Virus record (IMG/VR): IMGVR_UViG_2571042690_000019
Source of the DNA: a virus
Lineage: Duplodnaviria > Heunggongvirae > Uroviricota > Caudoviricetes
Reading direction: 5' to 3' (one strand)
DNA length: 64,000 bases
A program made the position numbers and the translations under genes. Below, one piece after another: positions 15,868 to 56,128 of this stretch. Positions within the stretch are counted from its first letter, which is position 1; each line of letters opens with the position of its first letter. The notes beneath the pieces were generated by a model. That model searched no databases. It was not told the DNA's origin and saw only the letters and a program-made list of their open reading frames with translations.

Positions 15868-16183
15868 ATTGGCAGCCTCCTTTGACTAAGTTAAGGAGCT
15901 ACCGCGTGAGGTTCCAATCTCAATGGCGGTAGCACTGACTGGGTTGGAACTACCGGCGTCAAAGGGAACCGGCCTGCCTTTCGGCAGCCCAGCCAGCACT
16001 ACCATTGATCTCTGAGCTAAACGCTAAGTATGGCTGTGCGATGGCATGACACAAAAAAAGACGCGTTCGGCGTCTGTGTCGCCTTTGACATTATCCGGGG
16101 TTCCAATCCCGGCACCCGTTTTTCTAAGGTGCCGTAGAAATATACCCCACGATAATGCCATGGCGCAACAGTCAGTATTTTAT

Positions 16184-40342: not shown

Positions 40343-40796
40343 AACGTCTCCTTTTTACACGCGCGACCATCTCTCGGTTAAACCGATAGAGATGTCGAAA
40401 CTTCGTATTAATTAAGGGTTACAGCCTGAGCGGCTATATGATGAATTGAAAGGAGTTGTGGCGGTGGTGCCTCCACCTGCCAGGTCAGCCACGCCCGGCG
40501 ACGACACTTATCAGAACCTCAATGAATGAAAATGGCTTCGTCACGAGCGCATAGCCGCAATTACCACAACGGAAACGGCGCTCGCGTTAATTAAACGCCT
40601 TTTCCTGTTGTGCGCCGTACTCTTCCGGCTGTCACACCGAATCGCCAGGATGGTGAGTCCTCGGTCCGACGATATGAACGGGGCTTGCACATTCCGGCTA
40701 CCTGGTTTGTTGCCTGAGCTAGGGGAAAAGGTAACCCCTTTAACGTCACCAGACCGCTAACGACGCATGTGCCAGACGCCGTGTTACAACCAAATA

Positions 40797-40872
40797 TGGT
40801 GGCCCCTACCGGACTTGAACCGGTGACCGTGCGATTATGAGTCGCCAGCTCTAACCACTGAGCTAAGGGGCC
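40797..40872 (-). tRNA. tRNA-Ile (anticodon CAU, ileX-like) or tRNA-Met
   Basis: GGCCCCTTAGCTCAGTGGTTAGAGC...CTCATAA...GGTTCAAGTCC...GGGGCCACCA; cloverleaf folds; near-identical to E. coli ileX as recalled. Confidence 0.75.
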
Positions 40873-40881
40873 AATTAGTTT

Positions 40882-40995
40882 TTATTTTCGACGCCTGAGA
40901 TTCTTCGCTACTTGTTCTACTCCGTATACGATCACAAGCAGAAATAGCAAAGACCATCCAGGGTTCTTATCAATATACGTCCAAAAATCCATCAT
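40882..40995 (-). CDS. possible small membrane peptide (36 aa)
   Basis: manual translation MMDFWTYIDKNPGWSLLFLLVIVYGVEQVAKNLRRRK; ATGA overlap with upstream ORF. Confidence 0.25.
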   Translation of the reverse strand: MMDFWTYIDKNPGWSLLFLLVIVYGVEQVAKNLRRRK

Positions 40996-41156
40996 GAGTT
41001 CCTGAACGCAGCTTTAATAATCGGCAATAGCAATACCACAGCTACTGAAACCAGTGCCCCATCAGCCAACACCGACATCACTTTGCTGGTGAAATCCACC
41101 AGCACGGACAAAACGAGAAAACCAATGGCGCACGCAATACGCGCCTTGCCAATCAT
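40992..41156 (-). CDS. possible small membrane peptide (52 aa)
   Basis: manual translation MIGKARIACAIGFLVLSVLVDFTSKVMSVLADGALVSVAVVLLPIIKAAFRNS; TAATG overlap with TerB-like gene stop. Confidence 0.35.
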   Translation of the reverse strand: MIGKARIACAIGFLVLSVLVDFTSKVMSVLADGALVSVAVVLLLPIIKAAFRNS

Positions 41157-41590
41157 TACAGATAATCTTCCACACGAAGGCCCAAACGACGGCCTACTTC
41201 TTCCAGTACTTTGTGTTCTGCTGGCTCGATTTCACCGTCCGCTTCTGCAATCGTCAGCATGTTAACGAATACTTCTTCCGCTTCTTTTGGATCATTTTTG
41301 ATATCTTCAATTTCGCGAAGGATATTCATGCGACCAACACGGAAACCAGCTTCCAGTTGCTCAGTAAAACGGGTGATTGTTGCGGTAATTTCGTTGCCAA
41401 AATGACTTAAGCGAGGATTAGAGCGGACAAGCTGATCAAGTTTCGCTGTTTCTTCCTTTTCGATTTCACCATCTGCGGCAGACACCAACAAACAGCCACC
41501 GATAATGGCCTCCATCAGATCGCGATTCTCAACCCTTTTCAGCTCTACTTTTGCTGAAGCGACTTTCTTACCGAAAAATTTACCGAACAT
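41156..41590 (-). CDS. TerB-like protein (tellurite-resistance TerB fold; P1 tciA-like)
   Basis: 144 aa with repeated ADGEIE-type acidic motifs; located in the tRNA cluster as tciA is in P1. Confidence 0.5.
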   Translation of the reverse strand: MFGKFFGKKVASAKVELKRVENRDLMEAIIGGCLLVSAADGEIEKEETAKLDQLVRSNPRLSHFGNEITATITRFTEQLEAGFRVGRMNILREIEDIKNDPKEAEEVFVNMLTIAEADGEIEPAEHKVLEEVGRRLGLRVEDYL

Positions 41591-41857
41591 TGGTTATCCC
41601 TCAATAAACATGACGTATTTATTAGGTTGCGGTGCCTGGTGCCTCCAGGTGACGTTAACCAGTTAACAATTAACGCCGGGATGTTTGACTTAACCACTAA
41701 GGAGGATTGTTTTAACTGTTCCGCGTGCGCATAGCCGCATTCACCGCAATGGTAAGAGCACTTGGCTGGCTGGGCGGCGATGACGCCTGTACGCATTTGG
41801 TGATCCGGTTCTGCTTCCGGCATTCGCTTAATTAGCCAAATACTCTTAACGTTGCAC

Positions 41858-41944
41858 TGGCGGAGAGTAATGGAATCGAACCATCATCGCTTGCGCAATG
41901 GGACGGTTTTCAAGACCGTTTGAGCACCATGCTCCCTACTCTCC
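41858..41944 (-). tRNA. tRNA-like gene, possibly tRNA-Ser (anticodon UGA), non-canonical A8
   Basis: 7-bp acceptor stem, anticodon arm ACGGT-CTTGAAA-ACCGT similar to E. coli serT, long variable arm, TTCGATT T-loop, 3' CCA; D-arm atypical. Confidence 0.35.
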
Positions 41945-42277
41945 AGTGATTGTGATGGTCGGTGCTGAACTCCGACACAGGGTTGTAGCAAGCCCCGCAA
42001 AGCGCGCACTACTGTAGTTGCGGCACATCAGCCTGTGCATTCACCACAATGTTGAGAACACTGGTTGTCACGCTGCAACGCAACATTTATTCGTAGATTG
42101 GGATATGACCCCGTTACGCCAGTGTTCTCAACGTTATAGTGCCGGTTACGGTTCCGGCCAGGCCTCTTCCTCAACGGGGTGTTCTCCATACGGACTACCG
42201 TTTATTGGTCGTTCCTGCGGTTTATGTTGTGAAGCCAGATGCTTATCTTCTGGTTGCTTCAAAGAGCTGCACTTCAT

Positions 42278-42345
42278 CACAACGGTAAGAGCACTCGATG
42301 CATTTAAGCCAAGCCCCATAAGGGAGAATGCCCTTACCTGTTGTG
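42278..42345. repeat. conserved-stem hairpin element (CACAACGGTAAGAGCAC ... GCCCTTACCTGTTGTG)
   Basis: imperfect inverted repeat sharing stem consensus with elements at 42474..42560 and 42917..42991. Confidence 0.5.
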
Positions 42346-42473
42346 TTGTGATGACCGGTGCTGATCTCCGGCTTGCGGTTATTTCAGACTCTCACGGGCG
42401 TTTAATTGCCCCGCCGAACAGCTCTTTTCCGCAATAGCTGCAATGTCTTTCGCGCATCAGCCTGCGCATTCAT

Positions 42474-42560
42474 CACAACGGTAAGGGTACTTCGTAGGGA
42501 TTCGAACCCTCTGCCAAGCTCGGCGATCTCCGACGTCGCAAAATACCCTTACCTGTTGTG
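42474..42560. repeat. conserved-stem hairpin element enclosing a tRNA-like T-arm fragment (GGGATTCGAACCC)
   Basis: CACAACGGTAAGGGTAC ... TACCCTTACCTGTTGTG inverted repeat, immediately downstream of tRNA-Thr on the minus strand. Confidence 0.5.
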
Positions 42561-42561
42561 C

Positions 42562-42637
42562 TGGTGCCGATTAACGGACTCGAACCGCTGACATCCTGCT
42601 TACAAGGCAGGCGCTCTACCAACTGAGCTAAACCGGC
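42562..42637 (-). tRNA. tRNA-Thr (anticodon UGU)
   Basis: GCCGGTTTAGCTCAGTTGGTAGAGC...CTTGTAA...GGTTCGAGTCC...CGGCACCA cloverleaf. Confidence 0.8.
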
Positions 42638-42639
42638 AT

Positions 42640-42715
42640 TGGCGATGGTGGATGGATTTGAACCATCGACCCGTTGATTAACAGTCAACCGCTCTAACCG
42701 CTGAGCTACACCATC
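42640..42715 (-). tRNA. tRNA-Asn (anticodon GUU)
   Basis: GATGGTGTAGCTCAGCGGTTAGAGC...CTGTTAA...GGTTCAAATCC...CACCATCGCCA cloverleaf. Confidence 0.8.
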
Positions 42716-42916
42716 ACTTGCCGGGTACGTCTCCGGCGAGGGCTTCCACCTCCGTATGCTTTTCGGCGCACCGCGCCCTGGGTGCAATTCGGTAACAGGG
42801 GATGCACAACCCTGGCTTCCAGCGTGATTAGCGCCTTCAGCATGACGGGATATACCCGTAGTAGGATGTTATCCCAGAAAGCCATTAACCAATGGCTGTT
42901 ACGCGGGAGGGACGTA

Positions 42917-42991
42917 ACAGGTAAGGGCGCTGACCAGAAAGACCTGACCCTTCTCATTCATCTGGTTAATCACACCAGCGCCCTTGCCTGT
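42917..42991. repeat. conserved-stem hairpin element (ACAGGTAAGGGCGCTG ... CAGCGCCCTTGCCTGT)
   Basis: 16-bp near-perfect inverted repeat with GGTAAGGG core. Confidence 0.5.
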
Positions 42992-43210
42992 TATGCCTCC
43001 CCGTTCCCTAATACACAGACGGGGACACTCTGCGGTCGATTTTTTGACGGGGGACGACTCATACCCCGTGGCGTCAGGCTTCTTAGGCCGCTACCATCAT
43101 CAGATCATCGTTTGCATTTACTTTAATGGTCGGGTTCTAAACCGCCGCAAAGTCGCTAACCATGACGAAAACCCTAAAAAAGCCCACCCGAAGATGGGCA
43201 AATACGCTAC

Positions 43211-43287: not shown

Positions 43288-43517
43288 TTCTTTCTTGATG
43301 CGGCACTCTCTCCGCCCGTCACCGCTCTGTCTCGGTTGTCGCGTTTGCCACGCCAGCCGTAACGAGGTTTAAAGTCTTTGCACGTTTCCATCACTCGACT
43401 GCCGTCTGTGGCTGTTCGTTGCAGCGGGGGTGCCTCCCCCTGGGGATATCCCCGGCCTTACCCCATTCTTTCAAGACACAATGCAAGGCCACATCCGCAT
43501 AGGTGCATTACCGCAAC

Positions 43518-43572
43518 ATTAAGGAGACTCAGGGCAAAAGGTAACCGCCACAAAAATCCCTATGCCTCCTTA
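43518..43572. repeat. long perfect hairpin (13-bp arms CAACATTAAGGAG / CTCCTTAATGTTG)
   Basis: inverted repeat read directly. Confidence 0.5.
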
Positions 43573-43934
43573 ATGTTGAAGATGTGCATTGATGATTAGA
43601 TGCAGCATGTACCGTTACTCTCTGCCGGACCATCATCAATGAACACCTTAAAAAGACCTTCCGTGGCTCAACATGTATTGTCGTTTACTCCGCAAAGTGC
43701 TCTCTCTGAAACCACTTTCCGCACTAAACCTGTTGAACTTTGGTCTGCTCGGTGCCAAAGCGTGCTCTTGGTTTACTATACTTTTCTAACACTTTAATTT
43801 GTTAATTGCTGGTGGGCATACAATAACCAATAAGTGACTATCAAGCCCAGCAAGCGAAACGTGGGTACCGCCCACCAGCAAGGAAAATTCTATGTTAAGT
43901 CATCTTCACAATCAATACATTCAAATTGTGATTT

Positions 43935-55782: not shown

Positions 55783-56128
55783 AGTTACGGCCTCACTAAC
55801 AGGTTTAACAACCTGCTACCCGCTGTCAAACAGGTGGCAGGACGTGACAGGGTTGACAGACTGGCGTTAGTGAAACCAGCAGGCCGAAGCCTCCCCATCA
55901 CGCCCCACCATAATTCGGGCGTAACGTGGTTTACGGACACAAAAATACCGCAATATCGGAAATCTGCGGTTGTCCGCACTAACATTCAGGCTGTCAAACC
56001 TGGTCGCAGAATTTGCTACGACGGCATGAATATAAGCCTGAAAACATGGAAGATCAACTAAAAATTTCAGCAATGGATGACTTCAGTCGATGATGCAGAT
56101 CATACATTCCGATTTAGAAACAGCAAAT

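What the first reader, a model, noticed from the sequence alone, without database searches (positions are those of the whole stretch)
40540..43000. tRNA cluster embedded in a family of conserved-stem hairpins and tRNA-like fragments
Besides clean tRNA-Ile(CAU), tRNA-Thr(UGU) and tRNA-Asn(GUU) on the minus strand, the region holds a tRNA-like gene with a serT-like anticodon arm (UGA) but non-canonical A8, and at least five imperfect inverted repeats sharing a CACAAC(A/G)GTAAGGG / CCCTTACC(T)GTTGTG stem, one enclosing a T-arm-like GGGATTCGAACCC. No credible protein-coding ORF covers about 1 kb here. These could be processed small RNAs, decayed tRNA genes or processing signals.
Basis: seen in the sequence. 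Interest (0 to 1): 0.6.

Follow-up and report, generated by a model that had tools for sequence, protein, structure and literature searches.

The report
Phage tRNA operon with hairpin–clamp RNAs
The hairpins around this phage's tRNA genes are real and belong to a widespread, largely undescribed two-part structured RNA (a long hairpin plus a pseudoknotted "clamp" related to the STnc100/PasD small RNAs) that recurs in phages and prophages across Proteobacteria and whose function is still unknown.

Summary
The window is a phage D6-like (P1/P7-type) plasmid prophage. On the minus strand it carries tRNA-Asn, tRNA-Thr, tRNA-Ile(CAU) and an unusual tRNA-Ser(UGA). The tRNA-Ser is best read as a known (8/4) tRNA-Ser, which explains "A8". 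Seven related long hairpins (A–G) are present.

Most are followed by a "clamp": GUGRUGAAUG, SL1, a variable stretch, SL2, then YCAYCAC. The clamp is the structured 5' domain of the Hfq-bound prophage sRNAs STnc100 and PasD.

Hairpin stems, clamp helices and an SL1–SL2 loop–loop helix are kept by compensatory changes. G·U usage favours the tRNA strand, so these are RNAs, not decaying tRNA genes.

Of 229 unique copies from phages and bacterial genomes (Gamma-, Beta- and Alphaproteobacteria), 96% have a closable clamp and 75% the upstream hairpin. Typical sites are after cI, after Q, or in tRNA arrays. Modules are heavily shuffled at the conserved junction.

My best reading is co-transcribed, processed structured small RNAs. 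A tRNA-like minihelix geometry hints at tRNA-type processing. Function is unproven.

The parts
42640..42715 (-). tRNA-Asn(GUU)
   Evidence: ARAGORN; RF00005 74.5 bits
42562..42637 (-). tRNA-Thr(UGU)
   Evidence: ARAGORN; RF00005 72.9 bits. It is followed directly by hairpin E, an arrangement seen 62 times in related loci
42474..42560 (-). Hairpin E: about 25-bp stem, with an apical three-way junction containing a T-arm-like AGGG-UUCGAAU-CCCU stacked on the 3' arm
   Evidence: minus strand -40.3 vs plus strand -33.9 kcal/mol
42345..42480 (-). Clamp STL-1 (E/C type): P1 GUUGUGAUG/CAUCACAAC, SL1 GCGCAGGCUGAUGCGC, 79-nt variable region, SL2 GCCGGAGAUCAGCACCGGU
   Evidence: model R1 42.6 bits, E 1.4e-9. 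The spacer is 100% identical in lambdoid phage mEp460
42278..42345 (-). Hairpin D
   Evidence: -32.5 (minus) vs -22.7 (plus) kcal/mol
42226..42284 (-). Short clamp STL-2 (P1 and SL2 present, no SL1)
   Evidence: model R1 27.1 bits, E 1.4e-6 with filters off
42042..42141 (-). Hairpin C (about 35-bp stem)
   Evidence: inverted repeat I2; fold; -46.0 vs -35.9 kcal/mol
41949..42051 (-). Clamp STL-3 (E/C type). Its 3' strand ends 5 nt before tRNA-Ser
   Evidence: model R1 43.1 bits, E 9.5e-10
41858..41944 (-). tRNA-Ser(UGA). It has a long variable arm and G73, and is best read as an 8-bp acceptor / 4-bp T-stem (8/4) tRNA
   Evidence: ARAGORN; RF01852 45.1 bits. The Moogle homologue keeps A8 opposite U and a 2-nt linker. 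The class is described in PMC5389517
41745..41853 (-). Hairpin B
   Evidence: direct-repeat family D2; fold; follows tRNA-Ser in 21 related loci
41626..41751 (-). Clamp STL-4 (STnc100 type), immediately upstream of tciA
   Evidence: Rfam RF02076 40.1 bits, E 1.6e-6, model positions 31-147; model R1 17.7 bits, E 0.017
40992..41590 (-). tciA (TerB, 41156-41590) and tciB (DUF3927, 40992-41156), the protein genes embedded in the RNA array
   Evidence: Pfam PF05099 and PF13064; PHROG 632 and 1470
40797..40872 (-). tRNA-Ile(CAU) (ARAGORN calls it Met-cat)
   Evidence: annotated tRNA-Ile in P7
40613..40796 (-). Element X: a conserved non-coding stretch also found downstream of cI in mEp460
   Evidence: sequence comparison; not characterised
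40565..40612 (-). Hairpin A (short apical loop)
40455..40576 (-). Clamp STL-5 (STnc100 type, assigned by architecture only): P1 GUUGUGG/CCACAAC, SL2 GGUGG-AGGCA-CCACC
   Evidence: read by eye, plus descriptor homologues in other P1-like loci. Not reached by R1 or by Rfam
42906..43002 (-). Hairpin F, a family member with no clamp after it, upstream of tRNA-Asn
   Evidence: inverted repeat I1. All differences between P1/P7 and the window preserve pairing on the minus strand
43182..43199 (-). Intrinsic terminator GCCCAUCUUCGGGUGGGC-U6, which ends the upstream non-coding unit
43418..43520 (-). Clamp STL-6 (STnc100 type, assigned by architecture only): SL2 GGGGG-AGGCA-CCCCC
   Evidence: read by eye, plus descriptor homologues. 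Not reached by R1 or by Rfam
43514..43578 (-). Hairpin G
   Evidence: inverted repeat I3; -30.6 vs -24.3 kcal/mol
43887..43915 (-). Sigma-70-like promoter match (TTGATT-17-TAGAAT) just after the pmgS stop codon. It is a possible start of the unit G, STL-6, terminator
   Evidence: consensus match only

Best explanation
The 40.45-43.6 kb stretch is a non-coding RNA array on the minus strand of a D6/P1-type phage-plasmid. It is interleaved with four tRNA genes and tciAB.

The repeated unit has two parts. The first is a long hairpin: a 17-25 bp stem, often with a bulged A and a U·U mismatch, and a hypervariable apical domain. The second is a "clamp". It has a closing helix P1 (at least 7 bp, core GGUG/CACC), an AAU linker and a 5-bp stem-loop SL1. 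A variable region of 12-218 nt follows. A 5-bp stem-loop SL2 then abuts the P1 3' strand with no linker. In the E/C type the SL1 and SL2 loops pair with each other (GCUGA with UCAGC).

Shown here:
- The fold is maintained by covariation on the transcribed strand.
- The clamp core matches the 5' domain of STnc100 by covariance model, and matches PasD by visual inspection only.
- The composite occurs in phages and prophages across Proteobacteria.
- Modules are shuffled at the conserved junction.

Inferred:
- The array is co-transcribed with the tRNAs (the P1 ban-operon equivalent) and cut into stable small RNAs.
- tRNAs, or terminators in stand-alone copies, define the ends of clamps.
- The long stems are plausible RNase III substrates.
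- The coaxial stack of P1 on SL2 (7 + 5 bp or more) resembles an acceptor/T-arm minihelix, so RNase P-type processing is possible. From memory, this is known for P1 C4 and P4 CI RNAs.
- The released RNAs probably act as host- or phage-directed regulators or decoys. The target is unknown.
For: Hairpins: 19 of 21 stem pairs change on both sides, and 0 of 500 shuffles reach any measure. The sense strand is more stable in 37 of 42 non-redundant hairpins, with 91 G·U pairs against 35. P1/P7 versions of hairpin F differ only by pair-preserving changes.

Clamp: SL1 is 98.8% paired with 4 of 5 pairs compensated. SL2 is 97.7% paired with 3 of 5. The loop-loop helix is 100% paired over 260 cells (G-C 31, G·U 19, A-U 2), with 0 of 500 shuffles reaching the observed values. 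ACUGAU is seen only with AUCAGU, in 2 independent cases.

Geometry: the SL2-to-P1 linker is 0 nt in 187 of 197 copies, and P1 is at least 7 bp in 89%.

Link to known sRNAs: Rfam STnc100 hits STL-4 at 40.1 bits, and the independent E/C-type model R1 hits the same locus. By visual reading, PasD1 and PasD2 are promoter, clamp, seed, terminator, and sit after a DUF3927 gene, syntenic with tciB.

Distribution: of 229 unique copies, 96% have a closable clamp, 75% have the hairpin, 20% have a terminator within 110 nt, and 7% have a tRNA within 40 nt against about 0.2% expected. All 70 modules within 1 kb of a tRNA are on the tRNA's strand. The element occurs after CI-type repressors, after Q, and before lysozyme genes. 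The exact 23-mer is present in Beta-, Gamma- and Alphaproteobacteria.

tRNA in the hairpin slot: Massilia L270 and module m38. T-arm motifs are enriched, on the sense strand only, at a fixed 21-23 nt from the hairpin 3' end.
Against: There are no expression or end-mapping data for this phage, so processing by RNase P or RNase III is conjecture.

The window's clamps lack the seed and terminator that make PasD and STnc100 Hfq-bound sRNAs. No window copy reaches Rfam's gathering score. STL-5, STL-6 and PasD are not found by model R1.

The clamp's central region is not a closed arm more often than shuffled sequence (22 of 121 against 28 ± 5). No tRNA model hits clamps or hairpins. The tRNA analogy is therefore only partial.

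The loop-loop evidence is weakened because the retrieval patterns fixed parts of both loops. The hairpin strand test used hairpins that were selected on sense-strand folds.

No promoter for the tRNA operon was identified downstream of the 43182-43199 terminator.
Confidence: 0.55

Rival explanations
1. The hairpins are decaying tRNA genes (pseudo-tRNAs) left over from turnover of the phage tRNA repertoire, with no function of their own.
For: Hairpin E and about 10% of hairpin lineages keep a T-arm-like motif stacked on the 3' arm. Intact tRNA or tRNA-like genes occupy the same slot in some genomes (m38; L270). The tRNA complement differs among P1-like phages.
Against: Stems are conserved by compensatory change over large divergence. 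They are paired with a clamp in 75% of 229 copies, including in Betaproteobacteria. Most interiors have no tRNA feature. No hairpin scores on RF00005 even at E up to 10. Decay would not preserve 20-25 bp helices or G·U strand asymmetry.
Confidence: 0.1
2. The elements are primarily DNA-level elements. They could be recombination linkers at mosaic boundaries (as proposed for T4 promoter-stem-loop cassettes), a MITE-like mobile repeat, or cruciform/ssDNA sites. Any RNA structure would be incidental.
For: Homology between unrelated phages starts and stops inside the hairpin arms and the clamp junction. One clamp type is joined to 11 different upstream elements. Fragments of 40-110 nt at 90% identity or more occur in Ackermannviridae, FelixO1-like, T1-like, P22-like and lambdoid phages.
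Against: G·U against A·C asymmetry and lower sense-strand energies. Strict co-orientation with tRNAs (70 of 70). A covarying long-range P1 and a loop-loop helix, which make no sense for duplex DNA. No target-site duplications, transposase, integrase or other conserved partner protein. The integron attC core consensus is not met (read from the sequence). Recombination at conserved RNA modules may be a by-product.
Confidence: 0.15
3. The clamp is a cis-acting transcription element. It could be a put-like RNA that makes RNA polymerase terminator-resistant, or an attenuator. That would allow read-through of the many structured tRNA and hairpin elements in the operon.
For: Copies lie early in operons: after promoters, after cI or Q, and upstream of tciA. 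The extreme sequence conservation across Proteobacteria suggests contact with a universal machine such as RNA polymerase. A leader terminator at 43182-43199 precedes the array.
Against: In PasD, mEp460 and about 20% of copies, the clamp is followed within 10-110 nt by an intrinsic terminator that evidently works. PasD is a discrete RNA of 80-240 nt on Northern blots (PMC8550237). Tandem copies are hard to rationalise under this model. No comparison with HK022 put RNA was possible.
Confidence: 0.08
4. The stretch encodes small proteins (for example the Upl-like 57-aa ORF at 42146-42319, or the 139-aa plus-strand ORF). The repeats would then be coding repeats.
For: P1-type records annotate upl, plp or hypothetical proteins here. 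The plus-strand ORF 42782-43126 hits phrog_27020.
Against: ORFs within 41.6-42.56 kb have no Pfam or PHROG match. Conservation follows the helices, with compensatory changes and length-variable interiors, not reading frames. The same modules occur in many genomes without any shared ORF.
Confidence: 0.03

Closest known systems
STnc100 (Rfam RF02076) and PasD1/PasD2, Hfq-associated sRNAs encoded by prophages
   Same: They share the clamp core: P1 (…GGUG / CACC…), an AAU linker, a first stem-loop containing GCU(G)AUGCG, a variable region, and a second stem-loop that abuts the P1 3' strand. They also share the prophage setting and synteny with a DUF3927/TciB gene.
   Different: STnc100 and PasD continue into a U-rich seed and an intrinsic terminator, and start at their own promoter. 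The window's copies are clamp-only, sit inside an operon, are preceded by a long hairpin, and score below Rfam's gathering threshold. The E/C type is not detected by RF02076 at all and has complementary SL1 and SL2 loops. The known literature covers Escherichia, Shigella and Salmonella only.
(8/4) tRNA-Ser / allo-tRNA class (Mukai et al., PMC5389517)
   Same: The window's tRNA-Ser(UGA) can form an 8-bp acceptor and 4-bp T stem. It has a long variable arm and G73, sits in a phage tRNA cluster, and nearly hits tRNA-Sec models.
   Different: The anticodon is an ordinary serine anticodon. No covariation separates 8/4 from 7/5 with A8. Aminoacylation has not been tested.
RNase P-processed phage regulatory RNAs: P1/P7 C4 (RF01695) and P4 CI RNA
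   Same: They are small structured phage RNAs cut out of longer transcripts by tRNA-processing enzymes, and the same phage family carries C4. The clamp's P1 + SL2 stack resembles an acceptor/T-arm minihelix.
   Different: There is no sequence or covariance-model similarity. RNase P cleavage of hairpin-clamp units is untested. The knowledge of C4 and CI processing comes from memory (Hartmann 1995, Forti 1995), not from a tool result.
Stable RNAs of unknown function inside the phage T4 tRNA cluster (species 1 and 2, rnaC/rnaD)
   Same: They are non-tRNA structured RNAs co-transcribed and co-processed with phage tRNAs.
   Different: This is recalled from memory, and no sequence comparison was run. 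T4 is unrelated to this phage.
T4-type PeSL mobile regulatory cassettes / lambdoid 'linker' sequences
   Same: Short conserved structured motifs sit at the boundaries of shuffled modules.
   Different: No promoter is built into the hairpin. There is strong RNA-level covariation and strand asymmetry, and the phylogenetic range is much wider.

Membership tests
tRNA (Rfam RF00005) | Score at or above the 29-bit gathering score, with a cloverleaf fold and an anticodon | tested here: met
   The Asn, Thr and Ile(CAU) genes score 66-75 bits. None of the hairpins or clamps gives any RF00005 hit at E up to 10.
(8/4) tRNA-Ser (allo-tRNA group) | A 12-bp acceptor branch split 8/4, a long V-arm, a G73/U73 discriminator and a serine anticodon | tested here: inconclusive
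   The 8/4 pairing, V-arm, G73 and UGA anticodon can all be read from the sequence. The 2-nt linker and A8-U are kept in the divergent Moogle homologue. No covariation excludes 7/5. RF01852 scores 45.1 against a gathering score of 47.
STnc100 (Rfam RF02076) | Reaches the 47-bit gathering score | tested here: not met
   STL-4 scores 40.1 bits. P1-like relatives score 34-43 bits. STL-1, 2, 3, 5 and 6 give no hit.
STnc100 (Rfam RF02076) | Full-length match (positions 1-206), including the 3' seed and terminator | tested here: not met
   Only model positions 31-147 align in every copy.
STnc100 / PasD | Core fold: P1, GGUGAAU, SL1, a variable stretch, then SL2 abutting the P1 3' strand | tested here: met
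   Rfam alignment of STL-4, anatomy of PasD read by eye, and cross-detection by model R1.
STnc100 / PasD | Hfq-bound trans-acting sRNA | not testable with these tools
   This needs CLIP, RIL-seq or Northern blots in a D6/P1 lysogen.
Hairpin-clamp composite (defined here) | A long hairpin whose 3' arm runs directly into clamp P1; SL1 and SL2 of 5 bp each; a 0-nt SL2-to-P1 linker | tested here: met
   Units E+STL-1, C+STL-3 and D+STL-2 are supported by model R1. B+STL-4 is supported by Rfam and R1. A+STL-5 and G+STL-6 are assigned by architecture only. Census.
tRNA pseudogene | Residual collinear D, anticodon and T arms, or a weak tRNA-model hit | tested here: not met
   Only a T-arm motif is present in E and about 10% of lineages. 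There are no model hits.
Integron attC site | R''/R' core sites RYYYAAC and GTTRRRY, with an integron integrase nearby | tested here: not met
   The arm ends (TCACAAC and GTTGTGG/A) violate the consensus at 1-2 positions when read from the sequence. No integrase is among the conserved neighbours.
Generic host repeat (REP/ERIC-like) | Many copies dispersed through the host chromosome | tested here: not met
   Median 1 and maximum 3 places per E. coli genome, found in 1329 of 5426 genomes. The places checked are P1-like plasmids or mEp460-type prophage segments. There are none elsewhere in the window.
RNase III / RNase P substrate | Specific cleavage by the enzyme | not testable with these tools
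   Only stem length (at least 20 bp) and the 12-bp-or-longer stack geometry could be measured.

The most novel reading that the evidence does not exclude
The hairpin-clamp is a distinct, undescribed class of structured phage RNA, spread across Proteobacteria and embedded in or interchangeable with tRNA genes. Its near-invariant 23-nt core and pseudoknotted, minihelix-like fold would exist because it engages a universally conserved host machine, such as RNase P and the tRNA-processing apparatus, or RNA polymerase. It could act as operon "punctuation", as a decoy, or as a scaffold that presents hypervariable segments. On this reading, STnc100 and PasD are derived members that acquired a seed and a terminator.
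Probability: 0.25. Interest if true: 0.8.

Novelty: new variant of a known kind. Interest (0 to 1): 0.62.

Why it matters
P1-type phage-plasmids and lambdoid prophages are among the best-studied mobile elements. Even so, about 1.5 kb of this operon is unannotated or mis-annotated as small ORFs.

Recognising a composite RNA with a conserved pseudoknot gives a structural and evolutionary frame for the function-unknown sRNAs STnc100 and PasD. It extends that family from three enterobacterial genera to Beta- and Alphaproteobacteria. It also identifies a conserved junction where phage non-coding modules and tRNA genes are exchanged.

The element sits in lysogen-expressed slots: after cI, after Q, and in the C1-controlled tRNA operon. 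That makes testable the idea that prophages deploy tRNA-shaped RNAs against the host or against competing phages.

Tried and rejected
1. Strict tRNA linkage. Outside P1-like loci only 13 of 124 modules lie within 500 nt of a tRNA, against 5% at random.

2. A conserved partner protein (homing endonuclease, reverse transcriptase, integrase). None was found. The neighbours are ordinary prophage genes.

3. Similarity to RNase P RNA. An 11-mer and a 9-mer are shared with E. coli M1 RNA (2 of 1000 shuffles), but about 40 comparisons were made and those bases are loops in M1, so I dropped it. rRNA matches were no better.

4. Full cloverleaf. The central region is not a closed arm more often than shuffled sequence.

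5. Hammerhead or other ribozymes, Y RNA, tmRNA, GOLLD/ROOL. No Rfam hit was meaningful. CUGAUG lies within SL1 (loop plus stem 3' strand), and GAAA is not conserved.

6. PasA/PasC homology. PasA has no clamp.

7. The P1 C1-operator consensus is absent from the window.

8. Integron attC and MITE. The consensus is not met, and there are no target-site duplications.

9. Model R1 does not reach STL-5, STL-6 or PasD, so those links rest on architecture only.

10. Literature searches found nothing on these hairpins.


Full report
IDENTITY OF THE REGION. The 2.7-kb stretch is 98% identical to phage D6. It is 92-94% identical, in pieces, to P7 and P1. A 551-nt core is 100% identical to an E. coli plasmid. 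In P7 the equivalent region is the start of the C1-controlled ban operon, which runs tRNA-Asn, tRNA-Thr, terB/tci, tRNA-Ile, ban. It is transcribed on what is the minus strand of the window.

CHECKING THE OBSERVATION. ARAGORN and Rfam confirm tRNA-Asn, tRNA-Thr and tRNA(CAU), the last annotated Ile in P7. They also find a fourth gene at 41858-41944, called tRNA-Ser(UGA). It scores 45.1 bits on tRNA-Sec, just under the 47-bit threshold. The D6 record itself notes that tRNAscan-SE does not assign its amino acid.

The inverted repeats are real. They are A 40565-40612, B 41745-41853, C 42042-42141, D 42278-42345, E 42474-42560 and F 42906-43002. The arm motif occurs only here in the 64-kb window.

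ORFs in 41.6-42.56 kb have no Pfam or PHROG match. Only tciA (TerB) and tciB (DUF3927) are supported genes.

THE tRNA-LIKE GENE. Ten sequence variants exist in the fetched loci, plus a divergent homologue in the FelixO1-like phage Moogle. All keep A8 opposite a U, and all keep a 2-nt linker before a 4-bp D stem. The simplest reading is therefore an 8-bp acceptor and 4-bp T stem, with a long variable arm and G73. (8/4) tRNA-Ser species in phages and proteobacteria are a described class (PMC5389517). I regard this gene as a member of a known kind, although 8/4 and 7/5 are not separated by covariation. P7 carries it unannotated.

THE HAIRPINS ARE HALF OF A LARGER UNIT. Read on the tRNA strand, the 3' arm of most hairpins runs straight into GUGRUGAAUG. 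A 5-bp stem-loop follows (SL1, GCGCAGGCUGAUGCGC), then a variable stretch. A second 5-bp stem-loop comes next (SL2, GCCGGAGAUCAGCACCGGY), and then YCAYCAC, which pairs back to GUGRUG. I call this element the clamp.

Rfam's STnc100 model matches one copy, STL-4 at 41628-41748, at 40.1 bits over model positions 31-147. A covariance model I built only from E/C-type clamps finds the following:
- STL-1 (42345-42480) and STL-3 (41949-42051), each at E about 1e-9
- STL-2 (42226-42284), at E about 1e-6
- STL-4, the same locus Rfam hits, at E = 0.017

So two independent models tie the two clamp types together. STL-5 (40455-40576) and STL-6 (43418-43520) fit the architecture and have homologues in other P1-like loci. 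Neither model reaches them.

The order on the minus strand is: G, STL-6, a perfect 17-bp hairpin, an intrinsic terminator (43199-43182), F, tRNA-Asn, tRNA-Thr, E, STL-1, D, STL-2, C, STL-3, tRNA-Ser, B, STL-4, tciA, tciB, tRNA-Ile, element X, A, STL-5.

RELATION TO KNOWN sRNAs. STnc100 and PasD are abundant prophage sRNAs found in Hfq RIL-seq (PasD transcript levels were not Hfq-dependent). Their function is unknown, and they have recently been argued to share an ancestor (bioRxiv 10.64898/2026.05.13.724894 and PMC8550237).

I fetched the EPEC PasD1 and PasD2 loci. By visual inspection, each consists of:
- a sigma-70 promoter
- a clamp (CGCAUGGUGAAU, SL1, a variable stretch, GGGAGGC, GCCAUGCG)
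- a U-rich seed
- a terminator

Each lies directly after a DUF3927 gene, which is syntenic with tciB in the window. The clamp is therefore the structured 5' domain of these sRNAs. The window's copies lack the seed and terminator. No full-length STnc100 exists in any P1-like locus.

STRUCTURE IS UNDER SELECTION, AS RNA. I assembled about 230 viral loci using two exact motifs.

For 34 non-redundant hairpin arm pairs, 19 of 21 stem pairs show changes on both sides. No shuffle out of 500 reaches the observed values.

The sense strand folds better in 37 of 42 non-redundant hairpins, with 91 G·U pairs against 35. The caveat is that the hairpins were selected on sense-strand folds. Hairpin F in P1 and P7 differs from the window only by pair-preserving changes on the minus strand.

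For 52 non-redundant clamps:
- SL1 is 98.8% paired, with 4 of 5 pairs compensated.
- SL2 is 97.7% paired, with 3 of 5 pairs compensated.
- The inner 7 bp of P1 are nearly always paired.
- The proposed SL1-SL2 loop-loop helix is paired in all 260 cells (G-C 31, G·U 19, A-U 2).

The A-U variant ACUGAU/AUCAGU was seen in two independent phages, and never as a mismatch. Because my retrieval patterns fixed parts of the loops, I rate the kissing helix as likely, not proven.

GEOMETRY. In 197 parsed copies the SL2-to-P1 linker is 0 nt in 95%. SL2 has a 5-bp stem, with a 9-nt loop in 80%. P1 is at least 7 bp in 89%. P1 stacked on SL2 gives a helix of 12 bp or more, like a tRNA acceptor/T-arm branch, with SL1 contacting SL2 the way a D-loop contacts a T-loop.

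The analogy is partial. The central region is not a closed arm more often than shuffled sequence, and no tRNA model hits it.

The four bases UGUG at the hairpin's 3' end can pair either with the hairpin's 5' CACA or with the clamp's 3' CACA. Both partners are conserved, and I cannot tell whether this is a switch or a stacked junction.

DISTRIBUTION AND CONTEXT. Pieces of the unit occur in Ackermannviridae, FelixO1-like, T1-like, P22-like and lambdoid phages. They occur in 1329 of 5426 complete E. coli genomes, with a median of one place per genome. This is not a genome-wide host repeat.

The exact 23-mer GGTGAATGCRCAGGCTGATGYGC occurs in 104 stretches of species-representative genomes. These include Enterobacterales and many Betaproteobacteria isolates, such as Janthinobacterium, Massilia, Pandoraea, Achromobacter, Comamonas and Acidovorax. 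Other Gammaproteobacteria and some Alphaproteobacteria are also represented. A few MAGs from other phyla also match, but these may be mis-binned.

In these genomes the clamp is complete, and the outer P1 pairs co-vary freely around a fixed GGUG/CACC core.

Over 229 unique copies:
- 96% have a closable clamp.
- 75% have the upstream long hairpin.
- 20% have an intrinsic terminator within 110 nt downstream.
- 7% have a same-strand tRNA within 40 nt downstream, against about 0.2% expected.

All 70 modules within 1 kb of a tRNA share the tRNA's strand. Outside P1-like loci, however, proximity to tRNAs is only about twice random.

There is no conserved partner protein. The commonest neighbours are a co-oriented CI-type S24 repressor just upstream, Q antiterminators, and lysis genes. 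These are the classic lysogen-expressed or early-late "moron" slots.

RELATION TO tRNAs. T-arm-like motifs occur in about 10% of hairpin lineages, against 0.02 expected and none on the antisense strand. They always sit 21-23 nt from the hairpin 3' end. Forty per cent of all non-tRNA T-arm motifs in 6.2 Mb fall inside module spans that make up 1.9% of the sequence.

In Massilia, an intact tRNA-Gly-like gene with its acceptor stem extended by CACA/UGUG sits in the hairpin slot. Module m38 is similar. In several phages a tRNA follows a clamp within 12 nt or less. Hairpins and tRNAs therefore appear interchangeable as flanks of clamps, and some hairpins are probably tRNA-derived. The family as a whole is not decaying.

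MODULAR SHUFFLING. Homology between phages breaks inside the hairpin arms and the clamp junction. One clamp type, identical to STL-1, is joined to 11 different upstream elements, including a bare promoter. The conserved junction evidently serves as a recombination point. I consider this a consequence of conserved RNA modules rather than their primary role.

MECHANISM. Shown: the fold, the functional strand, the family relationship, the distribution and the shuffling.

Inferred: the units are co-transcribed with the tRNAs and cut into stable small RNAs. tRNAs (through RNase P) or terminators would define clamp ends. Stems of 20 bp or more are candidate RNase III sites. The minihelix-like stack is a possible handle for tRNA-processing enzymes, as I recall for P1 C4 and P4 CI RNAs (from memory). 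What the released RNAs do is unknown.

The G, STL-6, terminator segment, preceded by a sigma-70-like match at 43915-43887, looks like a separate PasD-like transcription unit.

VERDICT. The tRNA-Ser is a member of a known unusual class. The hairpins belong to a composite hairpin-clamp RNA. I classify this as a new variant of a known kind (the STnc100/PasD family), with much wider distribution and more structure than has been described.

Noticed in passing
window 15922-16132 and 55830-56035 (minus strand): There are two separate C4 antisense-RNA loci. One is with isrK and the other with the c4-a1b1 target motif, so this phage-plasmid appears to carry two immI-like RNA immunity modules.
   Followed up: no
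L002 2739-2825 (phage P7, NC_050152): P7 carries the (8/4) tRNA-Ser(UGA) at 98.9% identity, but its record annotates only tRNA-Ile, tRNA-Thr and tRNA-Asn.
   Followed up: partly
window 43182-43199 (minus strand): A strong intrinsic terminator (GCCCAUCUUCGGGUGGGC-U6) lies in the stretch that is 95% conserved with P1 and P7, downstream of their Op(ban) operator. The ban/tRNA operon may therefore have a leader terminator. No promoter was found between it and tRNA-Asn.
   Followed up: partly
window 42782-43126 (plus strand): A 114-aa ORF antisense to hairpin F matches phrog_27020 (unknown function) at E = 1e-45. It has no Pfam hit. It could be a real small gene or a family built from repeated mis-annotation.
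   Followed up: no
window 40613-40796 (element X): A non-coding stretch of about 180 nt between tRNA-Ile and hairpin A is conserved in lambdoid phage mEp460, just downstream of cI. A related sequence follows a clamp in a Superficieibacter genome (L280). On the plus strand it contains a GGAUGGUGA…UCACC clamp-like arrangement.
   Followed up: partly
window 42471-42479 / 42345-42353, and all related copies: The UGUG at the hairpin's 3' end is shared between the hairpin base (pairing with the upstream CACA) and clamp P1 (pairing with the downstream CACA). Both partners are conserved, which suggests either a conformational switch or a coaxially stacked junction.
   Followed up: partly
L008 1472-4809 (Klebsiella phage T751) and L010 1254-1870 (phage MK54): T751 has a 3.3-kb unannotated gap containing a hairpin-clamp and other recurring structured modules. 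MK54 has unannotated tRNA-Arg(UCU) and tRNA-Met(CAU) genes directly after a clamp, between tail genes.
   Followed up: partly
L009 1745-2493 (Citrobacter phage Moogle): ARAGORN reports a permuted tmRNA with tag ANDNVFLAVA spanning several tRNA genes in the tRNA array. It is probably a false positive, but I did not check it.
   Followed up: no
L288, L317, L228 (clamp variable regions): Some clamps carry tRNA-like pieces (D-arm plus T-arm, or a T-arm alone) inside or just after their variable central region.
   Followed up: partly
E. coli rnpB (L373) positions 168-197: The hairpin 5'-arm variants CAGGUAAGGGU and GGUAAGAGC are identical to two adjacent segments of RNase P RNA. After correcting for the number of comparisons this is not significant, and I treat it as coincidence.
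   Followed up: yes
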